Origin: a virus
Taxonomy: Duplodnaviria; Caudoviricetes
DNA: 64,000 nucleotides
Reading direction: 5' to 3' (one strand)
IMG/VR virus record: IMGVR_UViG_3300046820_001270
Coordinates: 192,001 to 256,000 of that record
This document shows positions 1-8,110 of this stretch, piece by piece. The notes beneath the pieces are model-generated. The model made no database searches and was not told the DNA's origin. It saw only the letters and a program-made list of their open reading frames with translations. The position numbers were made by a program, and so were the translations under genes. The stretch's first letter is position 1, and every line of letters starts with the position of its first letter.

Positions 1-435
1 AATTACAACATCTTTAAGAACATCGTTAAATACCCCCTTAGAATAATGATTTACGTGTCTTTTACCCTCATGAAGATGACCAACTACGCCAAACATATTT
101 TCACGGTTTTGCCACCACATTCCACTCGTTAATTTATCGGTCCCCGCAATCCCAATAATTCCATATTCAGGATGTTTCTCAAATAACTTAACAATCTTAG
201 GTGTCATATTAGGTGTCTCCAAAATAAGGTCATCGTGCATGAAAACAACGATGTCGTTAACACTTTCTTTTAACCCTTTGTTATAGACTTGTGTTAAAGA
301 CATTTCACCGTTATTTTCATACATCAATATTTCTGTATTTGGATGGGAAAACATTCTTTTTACATGATCGTAATATGTCGGATCAATTTTTCTTGTGGAT
401 ATAACCACACTTACAACTTCATTATTCTTCGACAT
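1..435 (-). CDS. Glycosyltransferase family 2-like protein (partial, runs off the window start)
   Basis: Translated by hand: MSKNNEVVSVVISTRKIDPTYY...SLTQVYNKGLKESVNDIVVFMHDDLIL...GIIGIAG. This shows the GT-A pattern YNxG...hhFhHDD. Not in the ORF track. Confidence 0.8.
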   Translation of the reverse strand, partial: MSKNNEVVSVVISTRKIDPTYYDHVKRMFSHPNTEILMYENNGEMSLTQVYNKGLKESVNDIVVFMHDDLILETPNMTPKIVKLFEKHPEYGIIGIAGTDKLTSGMWWQNRENMFGVVGHLHEGKRHVNHYSKGVFNDVLKDVVI

Positions 436-1171
436 ATAATACTTGTATTTTACCGTTAATTTCAACTAAGTCAACAACGATTGGTTTATTGGTTGGTTCA
501 TATCCTGTGGTACATATCGCCGCATTTACAAATACAGTTTTTTTACCGTACTGAACCCCATATCCCTCGTGAATATGACCAAACACATTTACCAATGGAT
601 TAATTTCACCAATTCTATTTATTAAACATTCACAACCAACGTGTGTATTTGGTTGTCTCCAATTATTAACTAAATCTCCATATCCATTAGGTGGACTATG
701 TGTGATTAAAACATCCGTATCCTCAGGTATCATATTCCATTTCTCCTGTAATTCAGTTCCTAATCTCGGTAAGTTAAATGCCCAATCATAGAACCAAGGT
801 TGCCAAGGACTACCATAAAATTTGATAGGTCTTGAAAATTCGGGAGTTTCAATTGTAATAAAACTGTCCTCTAAATAAGTCACGTCAGATTGTGATAAAT
901 TTTCAGGAGACATTAAATGACTTAACCATTCATATGTACCTTTATAAGAAGGTTTATTAATTCTTTCAAAACAATAATCATGATTACCTGATATGAATAT
1001 TTTTTGATCCCATCCACCTAAGTTTTGAAACCAATCGATGAAATCTTTAACATCTTGTTCTCCACCTTTATTTGATAAATCTCCCGCATGAATTAATATA
1101 TCACCTTTTGGTAAAGGATGTTCCATCTGATGATGAAGGCTGTGGGTATCTGATATACATACTAATCTCAT
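422..1171 (-). CDS. Calcineurin-like metallophosphoesterase (MPPED/239FB-like)
   Basis: Motifs DTH, GD, GNHD, THSPP, FGHIHE. Likely start is MRLVCISDTH at 1171, because a TAnnTTTG promoter lies at 1176-1183. Confidence 0.9.
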   Translation of the reverse strand: MRLVCISDTHSLHHQMEHPLPKGDILIHAGDLSNKGGEQDVKDFIDWFQNLGGWDQKIFISGNHDYCFERINKPSYKGTYEWLSHLMSPENLSQSDVTYLEDSFITIETPEFSRPIKFYGSPWQPWFYDWAFNLPRLGTELQEKWNMIPEDTDVLITHSPPNGYGDLVNNWRQPNTHVGCECLINRIGEINPLVNVFGHIHEGYGVQYGKKTVFVNAAICTTGYEPTNKPIVVDLVEINGKIQVLYVEE

Positions 1172-1175
1172 AAAA

Positions 1176-1183
1176 CAAATATA
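1176..1183 (-). promoter_or_regulatory. Bacteroidota sigma70 -7 element (TATATTTG)
   Basis: Plus strand caaatata = TAnnTTTG on the minus strand, just upstream of the ATG at 1171. Confidence 0.6.
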
Positions 1184-1206
1184 CAAATTATTTTCGAATA
1201 TGCATA

Positions 1207-1232
1207 AAAAAAGTCAGAATTTCTTCTGACTT
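1207..1232 (-). terminator. Intrinsic terminator of the large ncRNA
   Basis: Minus strand AAGTCAGAA-gaaa-TTCTGACTT followed by a T run. Confidence 0.8.
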
Positions 1233-1243
1233 AATTTTGTATA

Positions 1244-2115
1244 GGCCGTATGGTTTTACATACATTCACCACCACTTTGTTTTTCTAAACAAAGAAAATA
1301 AAACTCTGAGAATACAAGTTTTAACAATCGACTTAGGAACATTATTTGTTTCTTTCCCTTTCCACAACCTTTTGAGTTGTACCGATCAATGACGGTCAAT
1401 TAGATTAACCAATCCTAAAGTCATCAGATACTCTTTTATTACTTATTACTCAACAAATCTGCCGACCTGTTTCAACCTTGCGGGTTTAGAGAACTTTCTT
1501 AAAAATCATATTGGGATTGAGTCCCTTTATGGCCGTGAACCCCTCACGACTAAGTAGTCACCTGTCTCCAATGACTGACGAACACTTTTTCTTGTTATAT
1601 TTAAGTTGTTAAACCGTAATTAACAAAATTTAGTTATCCGAATTGGGAAAGTAGTGGTTCGTCACCTAGCCAAGTTATCTTTTGAACAACTCGATACTAA
1701 ACTACTCTCTGAAGTGTCCCCACCTCCATATTTTTGGTTTCCTTCGAGATTAAACCCTTGGTAGGATTTATTCAAGGACACTAACAGCACCACCTGTTTT
1801 TTGTCATACCTTCCATCTTACGATGCTACGGTTTTAAGACCACCATTGTATTGAATTACGCAATAATAAAGTCGGATAACTATACTTCTTACATTAATTC
1901 TATGGATTATTCTTATTGATGTTCCCATCTCAACCAAACAACTCGGATTGCTTGGTCATCCAACCCTTTCGCTACGGAGTTACCCTCACTACTTCAGGTT
2001 AAATGATATTCCACTTGTCTACTCGAGATCCATTTCTGAATCCGCAACTTACCCCAACCAAGGGTTTGTCACTTTATCCCACTTTCGTGGTTTATTTTAT
2101 TGACTATAGACGGCC
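1244..2115 (-). ncRNA. Large (~870 nt) structured ncRNA, probably GOLLD
   Basis: GC-enriched region without a credible ORF. 5' GGCCGU (2110-2115) pairs with 3' ACGGCC (1244-1249). Many hairpins (ccac-GAAA-gtgg, ctttgttt-agaa-aaacaaag, acaac/gttgt). It has its own promoter, boxA and terminator. Size and phage/tRNA context fit GOLLD. Confidence 0.7.
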
Positions 2116-2123
2116 AATATTTT

Positions 2124-2135
2124 TATTCAAAGAAC
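2124..2135 (-). promoter_or_regulatory. rrn-type boxA antitermination element
   Basis: Minus strand GTTCTTTGAATA, between the promoter and the ncRNA 5' end. Confidence 0.6.
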
Positions 2136-2166
2136 ATTATCTTTTGGGTTATTCACCCTTCTTTTA

Positions 2167-2174
2167 CAAAGATA
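2167..2174 (-). promoter_or_regulatory. Bacteroidota sigma70 -7 element for the large ncRNA
   Basis: Minus strand TATCTTTG. Confidence 0.7.
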
Positions 2175-2205
2175 AGAAACTATTTCTAAAAAAAGAAATT
2201 ATTTC

Positions 2206-2430
2206 TTAATTATTTTCTACTTTATTTTTTTTAGACTGTTTTTTAGATGATACTTTATTATCACTTTTACCAGTTTTATATTCTGGATTCTTATAAAGTT
2301 TATATTCGGTTTTAGGTGCAAATGCCCAATTACCTCCTTTAACTCTTAAATCTGCTTCATTATTATCGATTCTTACCATTTCACCGATTTCATGACCCTT
2401 ACTTAATTTAATTAATTTAATACATTTCAT
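2206..2430 (-). CDS. Hypothetical basic protein
   Basis: 74-aa ORF with a Lys-rich tail, in phage gene orientation. Confidence 0.6.
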   Translation of the reverse strand: MKCIKLIKLSKGHEIGEMVRIDNNEADLRVKGGNWAFAPKTEYKLYKNPEYKTGKSDNKVSSKKQSKKNKVENN

Positions 2431-2484
2431 AGTTTACCTCCACGTTTTTTAAAAGATAAGTAATAATATTTTAAAAACAAAATT

Positions 2485-3663
2485 TTATTCACATTTTCCA
2501 CAATTTATTTTACAAACCTTTAGTTCGTTTCCACTACCTAAATCGTTATAAATAAACTTATCTAATATGTTGGTTTCCAATACTTCTTTTAATTTTTTAC
2601 CCTTCAATGAGAAGCTGTCAAATCCCAAATCTAACATTTTATTTAATATTTCTTTTTGAAACGAGTTTTCAAATCCATCCGAATAATTCATTGATATTGA
2701 TATATTAGGAGGTATTAAACAACACGGCATTATCATTTTATTATATGTAATAAATAAATGATAATCATCCGATTTAAGATCTGACGGATTTGAATAGTTT
2801 TTTGAATAACATGTTTGTTTTTTAATTAAATCAAAATTATTAATTTCATTTTGAGTAAAATTGTAATCGGTTCTCTCATACACTTTAGAAGTCCCTTTAA
2901 GTTCTTGTGATTTTTTAAAATCACCAATTTCTAATTCTTTAACAGGTATTGATGGAAGAGTATTTTTTAATTTTTCAAGGTCATCAAATTTCCATATTGT
3001 GTCATAGAATGGAGTATATTCTTCATTTTTAATTTCAGTTAAAAAATGAGTCAATTCACTTTTCATATTATGAACTGAAATTTTACCACCATTTGAAAAT
3101 GGTTTTTTAAGTAATAGATTACCTTTACCTAATGATTTAATAAAGTCAATCATCGGTATTATTTGATCCGTAGTTTCAGACCACATTAAAAATTGAATAA
3201 ATAACTTTTCTTTTTGACAATATTTGGTAAATGAATTGATGTTTTTAAGTATATTATCCCATTTAACATTAACCCTATATAATTCATTTTTTTCTCCAAT
3301 ACCATCTAACCCAAACATAATTTGCACACCTAATTTACCTAATTCTTCATAATCATTACTATTACCAATACCTCCATTGGTATTAATATTAACGGCAATT
3401 TTTGGGTTTAGTCGAATAAAGTATTTGATAATTTCTACCACATCTGGATTACCCATTGGATCTCCAAAATTACCACAAAGAGTTAATGTTTTTAAATTTG
3501 TTATTATGTCAATATCAATCGTATCAACAACATCATTTATTGACCAATATGTGTGTTCAAAATTACCGTAATGACCGAAACGTCTTCTTGAACAAACAGT
3601 ACAACCAGCATTACAAATTGATGAGATTTCAAAATCTAAATGTTGGATTGATTTTATGTTCAT
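2485..3663 (-). CDS. Radical SAM protein with SPASM/Twitch-like C-terminus
   Basis: CNAGCTVC (CxxxCxxC), CGNFGDP, NTNGG; C-terminal CYS...MPCC...CKINCGKC. Confidence 0.9.
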   Translation of the reverse strand: MNIKSIQHLDFEISSICNAGCTVCSRRRFGHYGNFEHTYWSINDVVDTIDIDIITNLKTLTLCGNFGDPMGNPDVVEIIKYFIRLNPKIAVNINTNGGIGNSNDYEELGKLGVQIMFGLDGIGEKNELYRVNVKWDNILKNINSFTKYCQKEKLFIQFLMWSETTDQIIPMIDFIKSLGKGNLLLKKPFSNGGKISVHNMKSELTHFLTEIKNEEYTPFYDTIWKFDDLEKLKNTLPSIPVKELEIGDFKKSQELKGTSKVYERTDYNFTQNEINNFDLIKKQTCYSKNYSNPSDLKSDDYHLFITYNKMIMPCCLIPPNISISMNYSDGFENSFQKEILNKMLDLGFDSFSLKGKKLKEVLETNILDKFIYNDLGSGNELKVCKINCGKCE

Positions 3664-3809
3664 TTTTAAAATTTATTTTGAATGAGAATAATCAATAGGG
3701 ACAGTTCCTTCACTTCTGTCTTGTAACTCCGTACCAACTCAGCACTATTGATGTTTGATGGATGAAAAACATCTATTCTTCTTGTGGACTTCCATCGGAG
3801 TCCCATATC

Positions 3810-4040
3810 TTACAAAAATCTACTACCTTGTCTTCTTCTTGCTTCTTCAGCTTCTCTATACCAACGAATCCACGTTAATGCTACATCAATTGGTGCTAAG
3901 ACCCAAGCCATCATTATCACCATAATTGTATCTAACTCAGGTGAACCACCTGTTGGATCGTTAGAATACCTTTTGTTTAAATTTTTAAACAACTGGTATA
4001 AACAATAAATAATACAAATAACATAATAACCTAAAAACAT
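3810..4040 (-). CDS. Small hypothetical membrane protein
   Basis: Two hydrophobic segments in a 76-aa ORF. Confidence 0.6.
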   Translation of the reverse strand: MFLGYYVICIIYCLYQLFKNLNKRYSNDPTGGSPELDTIMVIMMAWVLAPIDVALTWIRWYREAEEARRRQGSRFL

Positions 4041-4092
4041 AATATAAATTTTTTATAAATTACGAAAAATATCCCAAAAAACAAAATAACAT

Positions 4093-4908
4093 TTAAATTA
4101 ACATTTGCTTAAATTCCGTATCTGAAATTAATTTTTGATCATATCCAAAAAAATAAGACTCATTTGAGGTATACTGACATACTTTAGAATATTCATTTTT
4201 AGTTACTTTATCATTATAGTTTATGTTCAAATGATGTTCCCTTTGTCCATATAAATTTTTAAAATATGAATAGAATAACATAAACATAAAATTAAATTCA
4301 GCAGGAAAATCAGACAAAAACGGAAATTCTATAGTGTCAGTATTAAATGCAGTTTTTTTTAATTTATCATTAAACCCAATATTTTCTTTAATTATGGTGT
4401 TATTATTTGATTTAATAACATCGTTTATAGATTCAATTTTGATAAATTTAAAATTATTTTTAAATTTATTTTTATATAAAAGATTTAAATCTCCGTCAAG
4501 TACCTCTTCCTTAAAAAAAGAATTATCGTAAAAAAGTAATTGTGAACTCTGAGGTATGTAATGAAAATCATCACAAAATTGTAAAAATGTCCTATAATTT
4601 ATAATATACGAATTAATGTCAGTTATTTTGGAACTCCTTAAATAATCATTAATTTTTATTTTTTCCTCATGATCATTATCAAATTCAATCATTTGTTTCA
4701 TCCAAAAATATGAAGAAAAAAAACGATCAATAGGGTCTCGTGTAAAAATTATTTTTTTATCTAAAGATGTAGTTGTGTCAAATGAAAATTCAATTTCAAT
4801 TTTAAAATGTTGAAATAAATGACTTAATGTGGTATAAATTAAAGTATGTCCATTTTTAACAGGTATAAAAAAAGAGGTATTGTATTTCTTTAAATTAAGT
4901 ATTTCCAT
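4093..4908 (-). CDS. Sulfotransferase family (Sulfotransfer_2-like)
   Basis: IPVKNGHT (5'PSB-like), FTRDPIDRFFSSY (3'PB), DFHYIPQS. Confidence 0.75.
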   Translation of the reverse strand: MEILNLKKYNTSFFIPVKNGHTLIYTTLSHLFQHFKIEIEFSFDTTTSLDKKIIFTRDPIDRFFSSYFWMKQMIEFDNDHEEKIKINDYLRSSKITDINSYIINYRTFLQFCDDFHYIPQSSQLLFYDNSFFKEEVLDGDLNLLYKNKFKNNFKFIKIESINDVIKSNNNTIIKENIGFNDKLKKTAFNTDTIEFPFLSDFPAEFNFMFMLFYSYFKNLYGQREHHLNINYNDKVTKNEYSKVCQYTSNESYFFGYDQKLISDTEFKQMLI

Positions 4909-4925
4909 TATCTAATATATATCGG

Positions 4926-4997
4926 TATTCCCGACGGGATTCGAACCCGTATTACCTCCGTGAAAGGGAGGTGACCTAACCCTTAGTCGACAAGAAC
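4926..4997 (-). tRNA. tRNA-Glu(TTC)
   Basis: CCTCC-CT-TTC-AC-GGAGG anticodon arm; GGTTCGAATCC T arm. Confidence 0.9.
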
Positions 4998-5260
4998 AAA
5001 TAATCACTCAAATGGGTATTTGTTATAGTATCACAATCGGTGCACTGTACTCTGGTTAATTACTCCGTCTGTACCCAACAGCTTTATGTTGGCTTATAAT
5101 TGGCTACTTTACTATAACTCACATTTTTATTTGTGATTAAAAAAGATCCCGTTTTTTTTCTACATTTAGCCCAAGCACCAGTAGGTCAGTGTTTTGGGTT
5201 TTGACGCGAGAAGTCTACAAGGTTTCCCCATTAGACCGTTACCACGGGCAAACTCTACAG

Positions 5261-5347
5261 CGGAAGCGTAGGGATTTGAACCCCAGATACCTTTCGGTAT
5301 GCCAGTTTTCAAGACTGGTGCAATAAACCGGACTCTGCCACACTTCC
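5261..5347 (-). tRNA. tRNA-Ser(TGA)
   Basis: CCAGT-CT-TGA-AA-ACTGG; long variable arm; G73. Confidence 0.95.
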
Positions 5348-5348
5348 A

Positions 5349-5909
5349 TTATTTATTAGAAACAATATATCCATTATATTCCAATACTTGAATACATTTT
5401 TCTAAAAATTCTTCTACAGAAATGTCACTTTTCATTTTATTTATCGAAAAACTTATTAATCCCGCATTTTCTATAGTGTTTTCACCACCTTTAGATGCCG
5501 GTGTAATATGATCAATACTATATGATTTAGTCTCATATAAATTAATTGGTTCACCCGATAAATAACATTTAGGTTCGTTTCCTATTTTTAACAAAAAATC
5601 TCCTATATTAAAAGTAAGTTCAGGTTTAGTAATTGATATTTTTGAACCTTCCCTTCTTTGAAAATCTCTAACTTTACTGAGAACTCTTTTACCTAAATTA
5701 TTCCTATATCTAAAATCATATAGTTTTTTTTGTAAAATAAATTCAGGTTTAGATGTTCTTTTAATACTTCTATTTTTTGTTTTTTCTTTTTGGTTATCAC
5801 CCAAATAATATGAAATTGTCGATTTACTACAATTCAATTCTTTCATTATTTTATTATAGGTATAACCTTCTTTTTTTAATTCAATAATTCTATTTCCAAG
5901 CTCTGTCAT
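5349..5909 (-). mobile_element. Free-standing HNH homing endonuclease with N-terminal HTH
   Basis: N-terminal GYTYNKIMKELNCSKSTISYY (HTH); CYLSG...SIDHITPASKGGENTIEN...SINKMKSD (HNH). Confidence 0.85.
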
Positions 5910-5967
5910 GATATTCTTTATATATAAATATCAGGTTCGAACTAAAAAGTTAAAAATCGAACTTCTT

Positions 5968-5979
5968 ATTTCAAAGAAC
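5968..5979 (-). promoter_or_regulatory. rrn-type boxA element
   Basis: Minus strand GTTCTTTGAAAT, just downstream of tRNA-Asp. Confidence 0.55.
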
Positions 5980-5984
5980 GTTTG

Positions 5985-6058
5985 CGGAACAGACGAGACT
6001 CGAACTCGCGACCCCGGCAGTGACAGTGCCGTATTCTAACCAACTGAACTACCATTCC
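5985..6058 (-). tRNA. tRNA-Asp(GTC)
   Basis: CGGCA-CT-GTC-AC-TGCCG; canonical D and T arms. Confidence 0.95.
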
Positions 6059-6156
6059 TAATTATCACATCAAACAGGGATTCTACTTCCCGCAGCACGA
6101 AATTGTATCTTACTTAGCCCTACGTTAGCGGTATGGGTACCTGAAGATATGATTTG

Positions 6157-6232
6157 TGGGTGAGTTTGGATTCGAACCAAAGACCTAAAGTTTATGAGAC
6201 TTTTGCTCTAAAACCAGCTGAGCTACACACCC
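6157..6232 (-). tRNA. tRNA-Met or Ile2 (CAT)
   Basis: AAAGT-CT-CAT-AA-ACTTT; G1-C72, A73. Met versus lysidine-Ile2 cannot be resolved by eye. Confidence 0.9.
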
Positions 6233-6324
6233 TATTAGTCTTTTCCTTACCTCTTAATAACCACATTGCCATCCCGGTGTTACTGCCGGGTGCTTACCAC
6301 TTGCGTGGAGTGATTATCACGTTG

Positions 6325-6397
6325 CGCTCCCTGAGGGTCACGATCCCCCGACTTCAAAATTAACAGTTTTGCGCTCTACCAACTGAGCTAAGGAAGC
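6325..6397 (-). tRNA. tRNA-Asn(GTT)
   Basis: CAAAA-CT-GTT-AA-TTTTG; atypical T-loop ATCGTGA. Confidence 0.9.
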
Positions 6398-6668
6398 GTG
6401 TTTGATTCCAACCCAACTTAAGTTGCACCATCCGTGTCATGCACTGGTTAACAAAGTCCTCGTTGAGTTAGTTTCAAAAAGTTACAGGTTTTTCGTACCA
6501 TCTATGTACATCATGTCCGAGACTGATTCATGAATCGGAGGTTACTTTTCGCTTAATGGTTAATTACTCCAACTTATAGTAACTCTACTCTCACCGTTCT
6601 ACATCTAGATTCAAACGGATAGTTGAGATTCATAGACAGTGGGGTCACACCACCGTCGTCACCTGTTG

Positions 6669-6741
6669 AGCCTAAGGTCAGATTCGAACTGACGACCTGC
6701 TGATTACAAATCAGCTGCTCTACCAACTGAGCTACTCAGGC
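6669..6741 (-). tRNA. tRNA-Thr(TGT)
   Basis: GCTGA-TT-TGT-AA-TCAGC; canonical arms. Confidence 0.95.
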
Positions 6742-6758
6742 TTATTTTCTACTATTTT

Positions 6759-6770
6759 ATGTCAAAGAAC
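6759..6770 (-). promoter_or_regulatory. rrn-type boxA element
   Basis: Minus strand GTTCTTTGACAT, between the promoter (6782-6789) and tRNA-Thr. Confidence 0.65.
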
Positions 6771-6781
6771 CACTTATCTTA

Positions 6782-6789
6782 CAAAGATA
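6782..6789 (-). promoter_or_regulatory. Bacteroidota sigma70 -7 element (internal tRNA-array promoter)
   Basis: Minus strand TATCTTTG. Confidence 0.65.
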
Positions 6790-6834
6790 ATAAATAAATT
6801 CGGATATACAAAATTATTCTTAAATCTTTTTTTG

Positions 6835-6906
6835 AGGTCTCGGGTAGGGTCGAACTACCAACTTGAAATCCGTAGTTTCATGTGATCACCATTTCACCAC
6901 AAGACC
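6835..6906 (-). tRNA. tRNA-Arg(ACG)
   Basis: TGAAA-CT-ACG-GA-TTTCA; T arm GGTAG-TTCGACC-CTACC. Confidence 0.9.
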
Positions 6907-6913
6907 ATTTTAG

Positions 6914-6982
6914 TTGCGGGACCGGTAGTCGAAACCGGAAAAACACAGCTTATGAGACTGGTCGGGAACCCTCCTCCCCGCA
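6914..6982 (-). tRNA. Atypical short tRNA-Met(CAT) with fMet-like acceptor and reduced D arm
   Basis: TGCGGGG/TCCCGCA acceptor; CAGT-CTCATAA-GCTG; CCGGT-TTCGACT-ACCGG; 69 nt. Confidence 0.75.
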
Positions 6983-6986
6983 ATTT

Positions 6987-7060
6987 TGGATGTCCCTCGT
7001 GGATTCGAACCACAGCTAGATGGACCAAAACCACCTGTACTACCTCTATACTAAAGGACA
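6987..7060 (-). tRNA. tRNA-Gln(TTG), CCA encoded
   Basis: GGTGG-TT-TTG-GT-CCATC; T1-A72; 3' TCCA. Confidence 0.9.
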
Positions 7061-7065
7061 ATATG

Positions 7066-7145
7066 TACCCAAGGTCGGACTCGAACCGACACGTCTCTCG
7101 ACACGGTTTCTAAGACCGCCGTGTATCCCATTCCACCACTCGGGT
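7066..7145 (-). tRNA. tRNA-Leu(TAG)
   Basis: GCGGT-CT-TAG-AA-ACCGT; variable arm; A73. Confidence 0.95.
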
Positions 7146-7152
7146 ATTGTTG

Positions 7153-7224
7153 CACCCATGTAAGGACTCGAACCTTCATCTTCGGTTTTGGAGACCGACG
7201 TTCTACCAATTGAACTACACAGAT
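7153..7224 (-). tRNA. tRNA-Trp(CCA)
   Basis: TCGGT-CT-CCA-AA-ACCGA; G73. Confidence 0.9.
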
Positions 7225-7231
7225 ATGTTTG

Positions 7232-7307
7232 TCTAGATGGCTGGATTCGAACCAACGTGTTCTGCTTTCCAAAAGCAGCGAGAAAAGCCGGACTCCTCTA
7301 CATCTAG
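7232..7307 (-). tRNA. tRNA-Pro(TGG)
   Basis: CTGCT-TT-TGG-AA-AGCAG; C1-G72, A73. Confidence 0.9.
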
Positions 7308-7311
7308 ATAT

Positions 7312-7351
7312 AAAACAAAAAACCCCGAGATTTTTAAGTCTCAGGGTTTTT
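7312..7351 (-). terminator. Intrinsic terminator/attenuator hairpin directly upstream of the first tRNA
   Basis: Minus strand AAAAACCCTGAGA-cttaaaaa-TCTCGGGGTTTTT-TGTTTT. The G-U pair supports the minus strand. Confidence 0.75.
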
Positions 7352-7374
7352 AATATTATTAGTTAAACTTACAT

Positions 7375-7470
7375 TTAACCGTGATTAATATCTCCGAGAC
7401 ATATAGACATAGGACGATCATTCCAATTTTGTTGGTTCATCGGCGACGTTGTATATAGGTTTTGTCTCAT
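7375..7470 (-). CDS. Putative 31-aa leader peptide (MRQNLYTTSPMNQQNWNDRPMSICLGDINHG)
   Basis: Short ORF between the promoter (7501-7508) and the terminator. It contains segments complementary to the terminator 5' arm. Confidence 0.55.
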   Translation of the reverse strand: MRQNLYTTSPMNQQNWNDRPMSICLGDINHG

Positions 7471-7500
7471 TGAATTTTGTTTAATTTTTGTTTCTTTTTA

Positions 7501-7508
7501 CAAAGATA
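7501..7508 (-). promoter_or_regulatory. Bacteroidota sigma70 -7 element heading the tRNA array
   Basis: Minus strand TATCTTTG. Confidence 0.7.
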
Positions 7509-7594
7509 CATATAAATATATACATAAACAATAAAAGGTTAAAATATTTTATAATCAATTATGAATCAATCGATAAGAACTGATATTTATCAAT

Positions 7595-8110
7595 ATGACA
7601 AAAATAAAGGGACTCTCTCTCCTTTTATGTACTTTGTTCTTGGCATTCTCTTCATTTGCTCAGGACACGCAAAAAGTGTACATATCTGGCGTTGAGAATA
7701 AAATCAAGATTGGTCGTATGACATCTAACCGAAACTTGGCTTTCGGTGTTAAAAACATTTTCGAAGAAATTTTACAGGATAAGGATTTCACAATCGTAGA
7801 GGTACGTAGTGAGGCTGACGTTTTATTAAACGTTGATTTATTATTTTTTGACGTTAATAAAACTAAAAGAAACGTTTCAGTATTTCATTCTAATGTTGAA
7901 GAAACATTGGTAATAATGAAAGGTACTATCACCGATAAATCAGGTAAAAAATTAAAAGAGGTGGTGGCCGAAGAATCAAGTTCAGAAATTTCTACGTCAA
8001 CGTTAATCACTGACGAAGGAAGTGGACAAATAAACCAACAGGCATTGTCTTCAGCAATTAAGAAGACATGTGTTTCACTTGTAGATAAAATATTTTTAAA
8101 TAAGAAATGA
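7595..8110 (+). CDS. Secreted protein, probable CsgG/TolB_N/LpoB-like fold
   Basis: Sec signal peptide ending FAQ; alpha/beta pattern KVYISGVEN...GVKNIFEEIL...EADVLLNVDLL. Confidence 0.55.
   Translation: MTKIKGLSLLLCTLFLAFSSFAQDTQKVYISGVENKIKIGRMTSNRNLAFGVKNIFEEILQDKDFTIVEVRSEADVLLNVDLLFFDVNKTKRNVSVFHSNVEETLVIMKGTITDKSGKKLKEVVAEESSSEISTSTLITDEGSGQINQQALSSAIKKTCVSLVDKIFLNKK

What the first reader, a model, noticed from the sequence alone, without database searches (positions are those of the whole stretch)
1207..2174. Self-contained ~870-nt giant ncRNA gene (GOLLD-like) with promoter, boxA and terminator
Seen: no credible ORF, raised GC, a closing helix GGCCGU/ACGGCC joining both ends, many hairpins with GNRA-like loops and G-U pairs favouring the minus strand, TATCTTTG at 2167-2174, boxA at 2124-2135 and a terminator at 1207-1232. 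Known: GOLLD RNAs are ~800 nt, occur in phages and lake metagenomes near tRNAs, and have no established function. Inference: this is a GOLLD member or relative in a Bacteroidota jumbo phage, transcribed like a stable RNA.
Basis: partly seen in the sequence, partly recalled or inferred. Interest (0 to 1): 0.75.

Follow-up and report, generated by a model that had tools for sequence, protein, structure and literature searches.

The report
Phage GOLLD RNA with boxA leader
This gene-free stretch of a giant lake phage encodes an ordinary, full-length copy of GOLLD, a known giant phage RNA that builds protein-free cages. It is made from its own promoter through a leader carrying the signal (boxA) that host bacteria place before their ribosomal RNA genes.

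Summary
Window 1303-1709 (minus strand) matches the whole Rfam GOLLD model at 298.5 bits (cut-off 150). The roughly 400 bases upstream form a second folded domain. About 100 uncultured phage contigs share that domain, including two phages of about 640 kb, and it has very strong base-pair covariation.

Among 81 related GOLLD loci, 76 keep the boxA motif and 62 have a TAnnTTTG motif just upstream. The same motif sits in the ribosomal RNA leaders or spacers of Bacteroidota genomes, and in front of this phage's tRNA genes.

Lake metatranscriptomes from four studies hold the GOLLD body in RNA contigs.

One claim fails: the GGCCGU/ACGGCC "closing helix". Two of its bases belong to a covarying local helix (P1). 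Its 3' arm lies in a tail found only in the closest relatives, and a match of this size is expected by chance.

This is a new member of a known family, and its function is still unknown. The scan has already reported the same GOLLD-plus-boxA arrangement on other DNA: 137 notes in at least 115 genomes. I found no paper linking boxA to GOLLD.

The parts
2167..2174 (-). Promoter-like -7 element TATCTTTG (Bacteroidota type, TAnnTTTG); TTTC sits 20 nt upstream at the -33 position
   Evidence: Read. A TAnnTTTG lies within 80 nt upstream of boxA in 62 of 76 related loci, against 0.086 expected per 80 nt.
2146..2158 (-). Small leader hairpin GGGU-GAAUA-ACCC at the predicted 5' end of the transcript, in the boxB-like position
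   Evidence: Of 41 distinct promoter-boxA spacers in relatives, 38 fold at -3 kcal/mol or better (mean -5.7 against -1.15 when shuffled).
2124..2135 (-). boxA-like element GTTCTTTGAATA, followed by AUAUUGG
   Evidence: Kept in 32 of 34 and 45 of 47 relatives. The same motif lies in Bacteroidota rrn leaders and spacers. It matches 11 of 13 positions of the B. subtilis boxA shown to bind NusB (PMC13753749).
1711..2111 (-). GOLLD 5' domain, closed by helix P1 (2111-2106 with 2022-2017)
   Evidence: 106 consensus pairs, 72 with changes on both sides, 97.7% standard pairs. Controls with the 3' partner column shifted give 37-43%. Homologous in about 100 phage loci.
1303..1709 (-). GOLLD 3' domain (whole Rfam RF02032 model, positions 1-416)
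   Evidence: 298.5 bits against a cut-off of 150, E 2e-84.
1577..1645 (-). AU-rich variable linker inside the 3' domain (Rfam positions about 66-136); in env-38 the equivalent is the disordered loop inside the cage
   Evidence: Alignment. The equivalence with env-38 nt 497-538 is inferred from numbering in PMC12286853.
1275..1294 (-). Clade-specific tail hairpin CUUUGUUU-AGAA-AAACAAAG
   Evidence: L046/L008 carry CUUAGUUU...AAACUAAG, one compensating exchange.
1207..1232 (-). Intrinsic terminator (9-bp stem, GAAA loop, U run)
   Evidence: Conserved in the close relatives.
1244..1249 (-). ACGGCC, the 3' arm of the claimed closing helix (5' arm at 2110-2115); not supported as a structure
6761..6789 (-). 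Second unit of the same design: TATCTTTG (6789-6782), 11 nt, GTTCTTTGAC (6770-6761), then tRNA-Thr (6741-6668)
5970..5979 (-). Third boxA-like GTTCTTTGAA, directly after tRNA-Asp inside the tRNA array

Best explanation
Window 2174-1207 (minus strand) is a self-contained gene for a GOLLD RNA in a giant freshwater phage that uses Bacteroidota-type signals.

Shown:
- Membership of the GOLLD family.
- A two-domain fold with heavy covariation.
- A conserved leader of promoter motif, small hairpin and boxA.
- A terminator.
- Presence of the RNA body in lake metatranscriptomes.

Inferred, step by step:
1. Host RNA polymerase starts about 7 nt after TATCTTTG.
2. The nascent boxA (GUUCUUUGAA) binds host NusB-S10 and builds the rRNA-type antitermination complex. 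That complex protects this long untranslated transcript from Rho and helps it fold as it is made.
3. Transcription ends at the 1232-1207 terminator, and the leader is probably trimmed off.
4. By homology with the env-38 GOLLD solved by cryo-EM, the roughly 811-nt body (5' cap domain plus 3' ring domain) assembles with copies of itself into a closed 14-mer cage, with the AU-rich linker inside.

What the cage does is unknown. It shares its control signals and its neighbourhood with the phage's tRNA and tmRNA genes, so a role in the take-over of translation during lytic growth is my best guess.
For: Family:
- RF02032 full-length match, 298.5 bits against a cut-off of 150; no other family matches.

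Structure:
- Core: 208 consensus pairs, 147 with changes on both sides.
- 5' domain: 106 pairs, 72 with changes on both sides, 97.7% standard. Controls give 37-43% with the 3' partner column shifted and 80% with columns shuffled.
- Fold z-score -7.6.
- The Rfam first helix and a GGUGAC/GUCAUU pseudoknot were recovered by a blind covariation scan.
- The loop I map to L21a carries GC here and switches to CG in relatives, as reported for cage bridge B8 (PMC12286853).

Leader:
- boxA motif present in 32 of 34 loci picked by a 5'-domain word, against 0.015 expected per locus.
- Present in 45 of 47 loci picked independently by a 3'-domain pattern.
- Promoter motif upstream of boxA in 62 of 76 loci.
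- Hairpin between promoter and boxA in 38 of 41 distinct spacers.
- 58 of 85 distinct motif sites lie within 250 nt upstream of a GOLLD, tRNA or tmRNA gene, against 6.4% of random sites.
- An exact or one-off motif lies at -78 to -121 of 16S in five of six Bacteroidota rrn operons, and an exact copy (GTTCTTTGAC) lies in the 16S-23S spacer of three, including the sixth.
- It is close to the NusB-binding B. subtilis boxA.

RNA:
- Contigs of four lake RNA libraries from four studies cover 1275-2106 at summed depths of about 80-1800, several with no differences from the window.
- The silent-stretch control that the tool asks for (protein genes at 1-1068 and 2137-4806) had essentially no cover.
Against: - No binding, antitermination or assembly experiment exists for this RNA or for any Bacteroidota boxA.
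- boxC was not identified.
- In some relatives a tRNA, not a promoter, precedes boxA, so the motif could also serve in processing.
- Two divergent GOLLDs (L125, L140) have no such motif, so boxA is a clade feature and not a family feature.
- The homology of this 5' domain to that of env-38 was not tested, because no tool here held the env-38 sequence. The mapping of cage bridges therefore rests on numbering.
- The RNA evidence is from contigs. It gives no transcript ends, strand or level.
Confidence: 0.8

Rival explanations
1. The conserved GTTCTTTGAA is not an antitermination signal. It is instead a processing or maturation site (for example a nuclease or chaperone landing site that defines the GOLLD 5' end), or simply part of the precursor.
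For: In several relatives the motif follows a tRNA directly, with no promoter nearby. In the window it also sits right after tRNA-Asp. A divergent GOLLD has a self-cleaving Pistol ribozyme at the equivalent place, so some GOLLD lineages do have 5' processing.
Against: The motif is the one found in Bacteroidota rrn leaders and 16S-23S spacers. rrn operons also repeat boxA after tRNAs in the spacer, so a position behind a tRNA is expected for a true boxA. It matches the NusB-binding consensus closely. The two roles do not exclude each other.
Confidence: 0.15
2. The GGCCGU/ACGGCC pairing is real in this subclade. It forms an rRNA-like leader-trailer stem that brings both ends together for trimming.
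For: The single-sequence MFE and centroid both contain it. It is kept in 9 close relatives. rRNA precursors made with boxA do use such stems (PMC10250234, listed).
Against: It overlaps the covarying helix P1 by two bases. It shows no compensating change, and L012 breaks it. It is absent outside the closest relatives, where a tRNA follows the last GOLLD hairpin directly. The best leader-tail duplex is within the chance range. By my own estimate, about 0.8 perfect hexamer matches are expected between a 40-nt and a 100-nt stretch.
Confidence: 0.08
3. This GOLLD does not form a cage. It acts as a monomer or with proteins, for example as a ribosome- or tRNA-binding decoy.
For: The function of GOLLD is unknown. 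Ribosome pull-down of GOLLD is mentioned in PMC12286853. The 5' domain, which forms the cage cap in env-38, is the less conserved half of the family, and I could not compare it with env-38.
Against: The 3' domain, which makes the ring and the contacts between the two half-shells, matches the family model end to end. The loops I map to L21a and L21b keep self-complementary GC or CG dinucleotides across relatives. env-38 assembles at 12.5 nM without protein.
Confidence: 0.12

Closest known systems
GOLLD RNA (Rfam RF02032), in particular env-38, whose D7 14-mer nanocage was solved by cryo-EM (Kretsch et al. 2025, PMC12286853)
   Same: Full-length match to the family model. About 800 nt in two domains. 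A variable AU-rich linker after the first 3'-domain hairpin. Encoded in a phage next to tRNA genes. The loop I map to L21a has the GC/CG self-pairing dinucleotide.
   Different: The host signals are of Bacteroidota type. The RNA has its own promoter, leader hairpin, boxA and terminator, and it lies 2.7 kb from the tRNA array rather than directly behind a tRNA. The 5' domain is of a type shared by AT-rich giant lake phages, and its relation to the env-38 cap was not tested.
Bacterial rrn operon leader (promoter, boxB hairpin, boxA, boxC) and the Nus/SuhB/S4 antitermination complex (PMC4807359, PMC6614797, PMC13753749)
   Same: Promoter, then a small 5' hairpin, then boxA, then a long structured untranslated RNA. 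The motif is identical to the one in Bacteroidota rrn leaders and spacers.
   Different: The cargo is a phage RNA, not rRNA. No boxC was recognised. No supported leader-trailer stem. Binding of Nus factors is untested.
ROOL and OLE RNAs (the other large ornate RNAs)
   Same: Large, highly structured, protein-free multimers. ROOL is also phage-borne and near tRNAs.
   Different: No match to their Rfam models even at E up to 10. Sequence and fold are distinct.

Membership tests
GOLLD RNA (RF02032) | Covariance-model match above the curated gathering score over the whole model | tested here: met
   298.5 bits against 150, model positions 1-416 of 416, E 2e-84.
GOLLD RNA (RF02032) | Two-part build: a conserved 3' half plus a less conserved structured 5' half, over 800 nt in all | tested here: met
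   The 5' domain is 2111-1711 and the 3' domain is 1709-1303. Both show covariation.
GOLLD RNA (RF02032) | Variable unstructured linker inside the 3' half | tested here: met
   About 70 nt of AU-rich sequence aligned to the unpaired model positions 66-136. Its length and sequence vary among relatives.
GOLLD RNA (RF02032) | Encoded by phages or prophages, often beside tRNA genes | tested here: met
   Eleven tRNA genes at 4924-7307 on the same strand. Relatives lie on phage contigs of up to 483 kb and in two phages of about 640 kb.
GOLLD RNA (RF02032) | Self-complementary dinucleotide (GC or CG) in loop L21a, which makes cage bridge B8 | tested here: met
   The window has CGCAA. Relatives have CGCGA, CGGCA and GUCGAA. 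The mapping of L21a is by numbering only.
GOLLD RNA (RF02032) | Assembly into a homo-14-mer cage | not testable with these tools
   No RNA 3D or assembly tool is available. This needs mass photometry or cryo-EM.
rrn-type boxA antitermination leader | boxA sequence close to proven NusB-S10 sites | tested here: met
   AAUGUUCUUUGAAU against the B. subtilis consensus AUGAUCUUUGAAA (11 of 13 positions) and the E. coli consensus UGCUCUUUAACA (8 of 12). Consensus sequences are from PMC13753749.
rrn-type boxA antitermination leader | The same motif in the rrn leaders of the host phylum | tested here: met
   Six rrn operons from four Bacteroidota genomes were examined. Five have an exact GTTCTTTGA or a one-off variant at -78 to -121 of 16S, and three have an exact GTTCTTTGAC in the 16S-23S spacer, including the sixth.
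rrn-type boxA antitermination leader | Position between the promoter and a long untranslated structured RNA, kept in relatives | tested here: met
   76 of 81 loci keep the motif. 62 of those have TAnnTTTG 11-58 nt upstream.
rrn-type boxA antitermination leader | Accompanying boxB hairpin and boxC | tested here: inconclusive
   A hairpin before boxA is common (38 of 41 spacers). No boxC was recognised. WATTG follows boxA in only 36 of 76 loci.
rrn-type boxA antitermination leader | Binding of NusB-S10 and resistance to Rho | not testable with these tools
   This is a bench experiment.
rRNA-like leader-trailer processing stem | Long-range helix between leader and trailer, kept by compensating changes | tested here: not met
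   Only 6 bp, with no compensating change, and it overlaps P1. It is absent outside the nine closest relatives, and the duplex energy is within chance.
ROOL / OLE / HEARO | Match to the family covariance model | tested here: not met
   No hit in 1100-2300 at E up to 10.

The most novel reading that the evidence does not exclude
In giant Bacteroidota lake phages, the GOLLD, tRNA and tmRNA genes form one boxA regulon that takes over the host's ribosomal-RNA antitermination and folding complex. That complex is needed for the 800-nt RNA to escape Rho and to fold and assemble into its cage as it is transcribed. This would tie the unexplained GOLLD cage to the phage's reprogramming of translation.
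Probability: 0.4. Interest if true: 0.55.

Novelty: new member of a known kind. Interest (0 to 1): 0.3.

Why it matters
GOLLD is one of the largest natural RNAs that folds and assembles without protein, and its function has been open since 2009. This copy adds nothing new to the family as such. It does come with a clean, conserved expression cassette of promoter, hairpin, boxA and terminator, and with evidence that the RNA is abundant enough in lakes to assemble from small metatranscriptomes. The boxA leader gives a concrete bench test: does the host's rRNA transcription machinery make and fold GOLLD? The shared signals with tRNA and tmRNA genes also point to where its function might lie. The scan has already seen the same arrangement in many related phages, so this window is best used as one more well-annotated example.

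Tried and rejected
1. ROOL, OLE, HEARO and every other Rfam family: nothing in 1100-2300 at E up to 10 apart from GOLLD.

2. The closing helix is rejected (see observation check).

3. Identity of the window: megablast of 20 kb against phage records found only a 300-bp chance-like match to a Staphylococcus phage. No whole genome is held for the window.

4. Host from prophages:
- The 16-mer scan of 185,579 genomes gave 62 hits. Only one, a 5.9-kb contig binned as Saccharibacteria (L070), is a real GOLLD, so it gives no host information.
- GOLLD was not found in 151 sampled Bacteroidota genomes. No control genome rang either, so this says nothing.

5. Parts of the window without RNA-contig cover cannot be used to place transcript ends or to show processing. 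These parts are the leader 2107-2160, the tail below 1275, and the terminator. Contigs stop at 2071-2106, and two run into sequencing adapter at 2106 and 2089. That is at most a weak hint that the leader is trimmed.

6. The joint 1735 to 2069 in two RNA runs has only 29 letters on its shorter side. It probably comes from a relative and was not pursued.

7. Two extra covarying 4-5-bp stacks are too short, on 32 sequences, to be claimed. They are q257-260 with q558-561 and q408-412 with q626-630, where q = 2201 minus the window coordinate.

8. No tool here held the env-38 sequence, so the 5' domain and the named cage bridges could not be aligned residue by residue.

9. The count of structure pairs was not used, because it would need a typed 498-character structure string. 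A script with the same controls (3' partner column shifted, and columns shuffled) replaced it.

10. Of 17 further loci picked by the 3'-domain pattern, 15 hold no GOLLD by Rfam and are chance matches.

Full report
**What is there**

I read the region on the minus strand. The Rfam scan of the whole window gives one non-tRNA hit: GOLLD (RF02032) at 1303-1709, minus strand. It covers model positions 1-416 of 416 at 298.5 bits against a gathering score of 150, E 2e-84. A permissive scan of 1100-2300 finds no ROOL, OLE, HEARO or other family; everything else scores far below its cut-off. The Rfam model covers only the conserved 3' half of GOLLD, so the roughly 400 nt upstream had to be judged separately.

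**The 5' half**

- blastn against phage records finds only two relatives, the uncultured phages LR756502 (642 kb) and LR745206 (635 kb). It matches mainly in the 5' part, and both carry a full Rfam GOLLD right behind it.
- A 16-base word invariant in the three sequences pulled 53 IMG/VR contigs. Forty-two of those, plus the two phage-record loci (44 of 55 loci in all), align to the window's RNA by nhmmer, most over both halves.
- Identity to the window ranges from 99-100% (L011, L043) down to about 63%.
- A second sample, drawn independently with a 3'-domain pattern, added 47 further distinct loci with the same 5' domain.
- RNAalifold on 33 full-length sequences gives 208 pairs, 147 of them with changes on both sides. 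Almost every helix is at least 95% standard pairs.
- For the 5' domain alone (21 sequences) the tool gives 106 pairs, 72 with compensating changes. In my control script, 97.7% of cells are standard pairs, against 37-43% when the 3' partner column is shifted by 1-3 positions and 80% after column shuffling.
- The single sequence folds at -261.5 kcal/mol, z = -7.6. The minus strand folds about 51 kcal/mol better than the plus strand, and the consensus contains 30 G-U pairs.

So the region is a complete two-domain GOLLD whose conserved body runs from 2111 to 1301 (811 nt).

**The closing helix**

The letters GGCCGU (2115-2110) and ACGGCC (1249-1244) exist, and the single-sequence fold pairs them. 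The alignment shows otherwise:

- G2111 and U2110 belong to helix P1, which pairs GUCUAU (2111-2106) with GUAGAC (2022-2017). P1 is kept in 32 of 33 sequences. Its second pair switches UA/CG, and its third runs through CG, GC, AU and UA.
- The 3' arm lies in a roughly 100-nt tail that exists only in the window's nearest relatives. In more distant ones a tRNA gene follows the last GOLLD hairpin directly.
- Within the nine sequences that have both arms there is no variation except a break in L012.
- The best leader-tail duplex is no better than with shuffled tails in any lineage.

I therefore treat this helix as a chance match.

**The expression signals**

TATCTTTG (2174-2167) fits the Bacteroidota -7 promoter motif TAnnTTTG (from my own knowledge of Bacteroides promoters). 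A 13-nt hairpin follows at 2158-2146, then GTTCTTTGAA at 2135-2126. The terminator at 1232-1211 plus its U run is confirmed.

The conservation of the leader is the most informative result:

- The nine-base motif GTTCTTTRA lies within 140 nt upstream of P1 in 32 of 34 distinct loci of the first sample, against 0.015 expected per locus. It is present in 45 of 47 loci of the second sample.
- The surrounding leader diverges to 36-68% identity, and the distance to P1 varies from 21 to 117 nt.
- In 62 of 76 loci a TAnnTTTG lies 11-58 nt upstream of the motif, against a background of 0.086 per 80 nt.
- 38 of 41 distinct spacers between the two form a small hairpin.
- Across all fetched loci, 58 of 85 distinct motif sites sit within 250 nt upstream of a GOLLD, tRNA or tmRNA gene, against 6.4% of random sites.
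- In the window itself, TATCTTTG, 11 nt and GTTCTTTGAC precede tRNA-Thr (6789-6761). Another copy follows tRNA-Asp at 5979-5970.

To test whether this is the host-type boxA, I fetched six rRNA operons from four Bacteroidota genomes:

- Five carry GTTCTTTGA, or GTTCATTGA, at -78 to -121 of 16S.
- Three have an exact GTTCTTTGAC in the 16S-23S spacer, including the sixth operon.
- One reads GTTCTTTGAACATATTGG. The window reads GTTCTTTGAATAAAAATATTGG.
- The motif also matches 11 of 13 positions of the B. subtilis boxA that binds NusB in NMR titrations (PMC13753749).

I found no paper that links GOLLD with boxA.

**RNA evidence**

Six small lake metatranscriptomes hold about 40% of the sampled words of the region. 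I laid four of them, from four studies that may belong to one campaign, on window 1-8000. Their contigs cover 1275-2106 at summed word depths of roughly 80-1800, and several have no differences from the window. The tRNA array has lower depth, up to 206. The protein-coding stretches 1-1068 and 2137-4806, which serve as the silent-stretch control against carried-over DNA, have essentially none. These are contigs, so they show that the RNA body is present in RNA libraries. They do not show its ends, strand or level.

**How it most likely works**

Shown: family membership, fold, conserved leader, terminator, and presence as RNA.

Inferred:
- The host polymerase starts after the -7 motif.
- boxA recruits NusB-S10 and the rest of the rRNA antitermination complex. 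That complex is known to block Rho and to act as an RNA chaperone on rRNA (PMC4807359, PMC6614797 and PMC8632103, listed).
- The leader is removed.
- By homology with env-38, the RNA forms a 14-mer cage with its linker inside (PMC12286853).
- In support of the last step, the loop I map to L21a carries the self-pairing GC here and CG in distant relatives, the exchange reported for bridge B8. The next loop (L21b) keeps a GC or CG core. This mapping rests on numbering, not on an alignment to env-38.

**Context**

The flanking genes on the same strand are a metallophosphoesterase (422-1186) and a radical-SAM protein (2485-3663). Earlier notes of this scan describe the genome as a 334-kb freshwater phage of Bacteroidota. 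Close GOLLD relatives sit on contigs of 270-483 kb.

**Novelty**

This is an ordinary new member of a known family. The boxA leader is not in the papers I could search. However, this scan has already reported it on other DNA many times: 137 notes in at least 115 genomes, with the same reading. I reached it here independently, before reading those notes. Two divergent GOLLDs lack the motif, and one has a Pistol ribozyme in its place, so boxA is a feature of this phage clade rather than of GOLLD as a whole.

Noticed in passing
L140:837-912 (minus), next to the GOLLD at L140:94-475 (minus): A divergent GOLLD (197.9 bits) has a Pistol self-cleaving ribozyme (RF02679, 69.4 bits) directly 5' of its roughly 360-nt 5' region, and it has no boxA. 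The ribozyme may cut the GOLLD 5' end in that lineage.
   Followed up: partly
Relatives, e.g. L011:1791-2187 (minus), with GOLLD at L011:3947-4942: ARAGORN finds a tmRNA gene 1-2 kb from the GOLLD in 18 fetched loci. Four of them have the boxA-like motif just upstream. In the window, the equivalent place would lie before base 1.
   Followed up: partly
window 6906-6987 (minus): The gap between tRNA-Arg and tRNA-Gln reads like an odd tRNA: acceptor GCGGGGA...UCCCGCA with a CUCAUAA loop (CAU anticodon). Both ARAGORN and Rfam missed it.
   Followed up: no
window about 5350-5910 (minus): An HNH-endonuclease-like ORF lies inside the tRNA array, preceded by a boxA-like GTTCTTTGAA at 5979-5970.
   Followed up: no
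window 6761-6789 (minus): An internal promoter-like TATCTTTG plus boxA-like GTTCTTTGAC sits before tRNA-Thr, in the middle of the tRNA array. The array may therefore have more than one start besides the attenuator reported upstream at 7317-7531.
   Followed up: partly
window 1735 to 2069: RNA contigs of two runs join 1735 to 2069, skipping 333 bases of the 5' domain, at depth about 300. Only 29 letters lie on the shorter side, so this is probably a relative with another 5' part.
   Followed up: no
L238 (Bacteroidota rrn operon), 85 nt after the 16S end: An E. coli-type GCTCTTTAACAA lies in the spacer, in addition to the GTTCTTTGAC further on. That makes two boxA flavours in one operon.
   Followed up: no
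window 4998-5259 and 6398-6667 (minus): Gaps of 260-270 nt with 40-46% GC lie between tRNA genes. They have no ORF and no Rfam match, and could be further structured RNAs.
   Followed up: no
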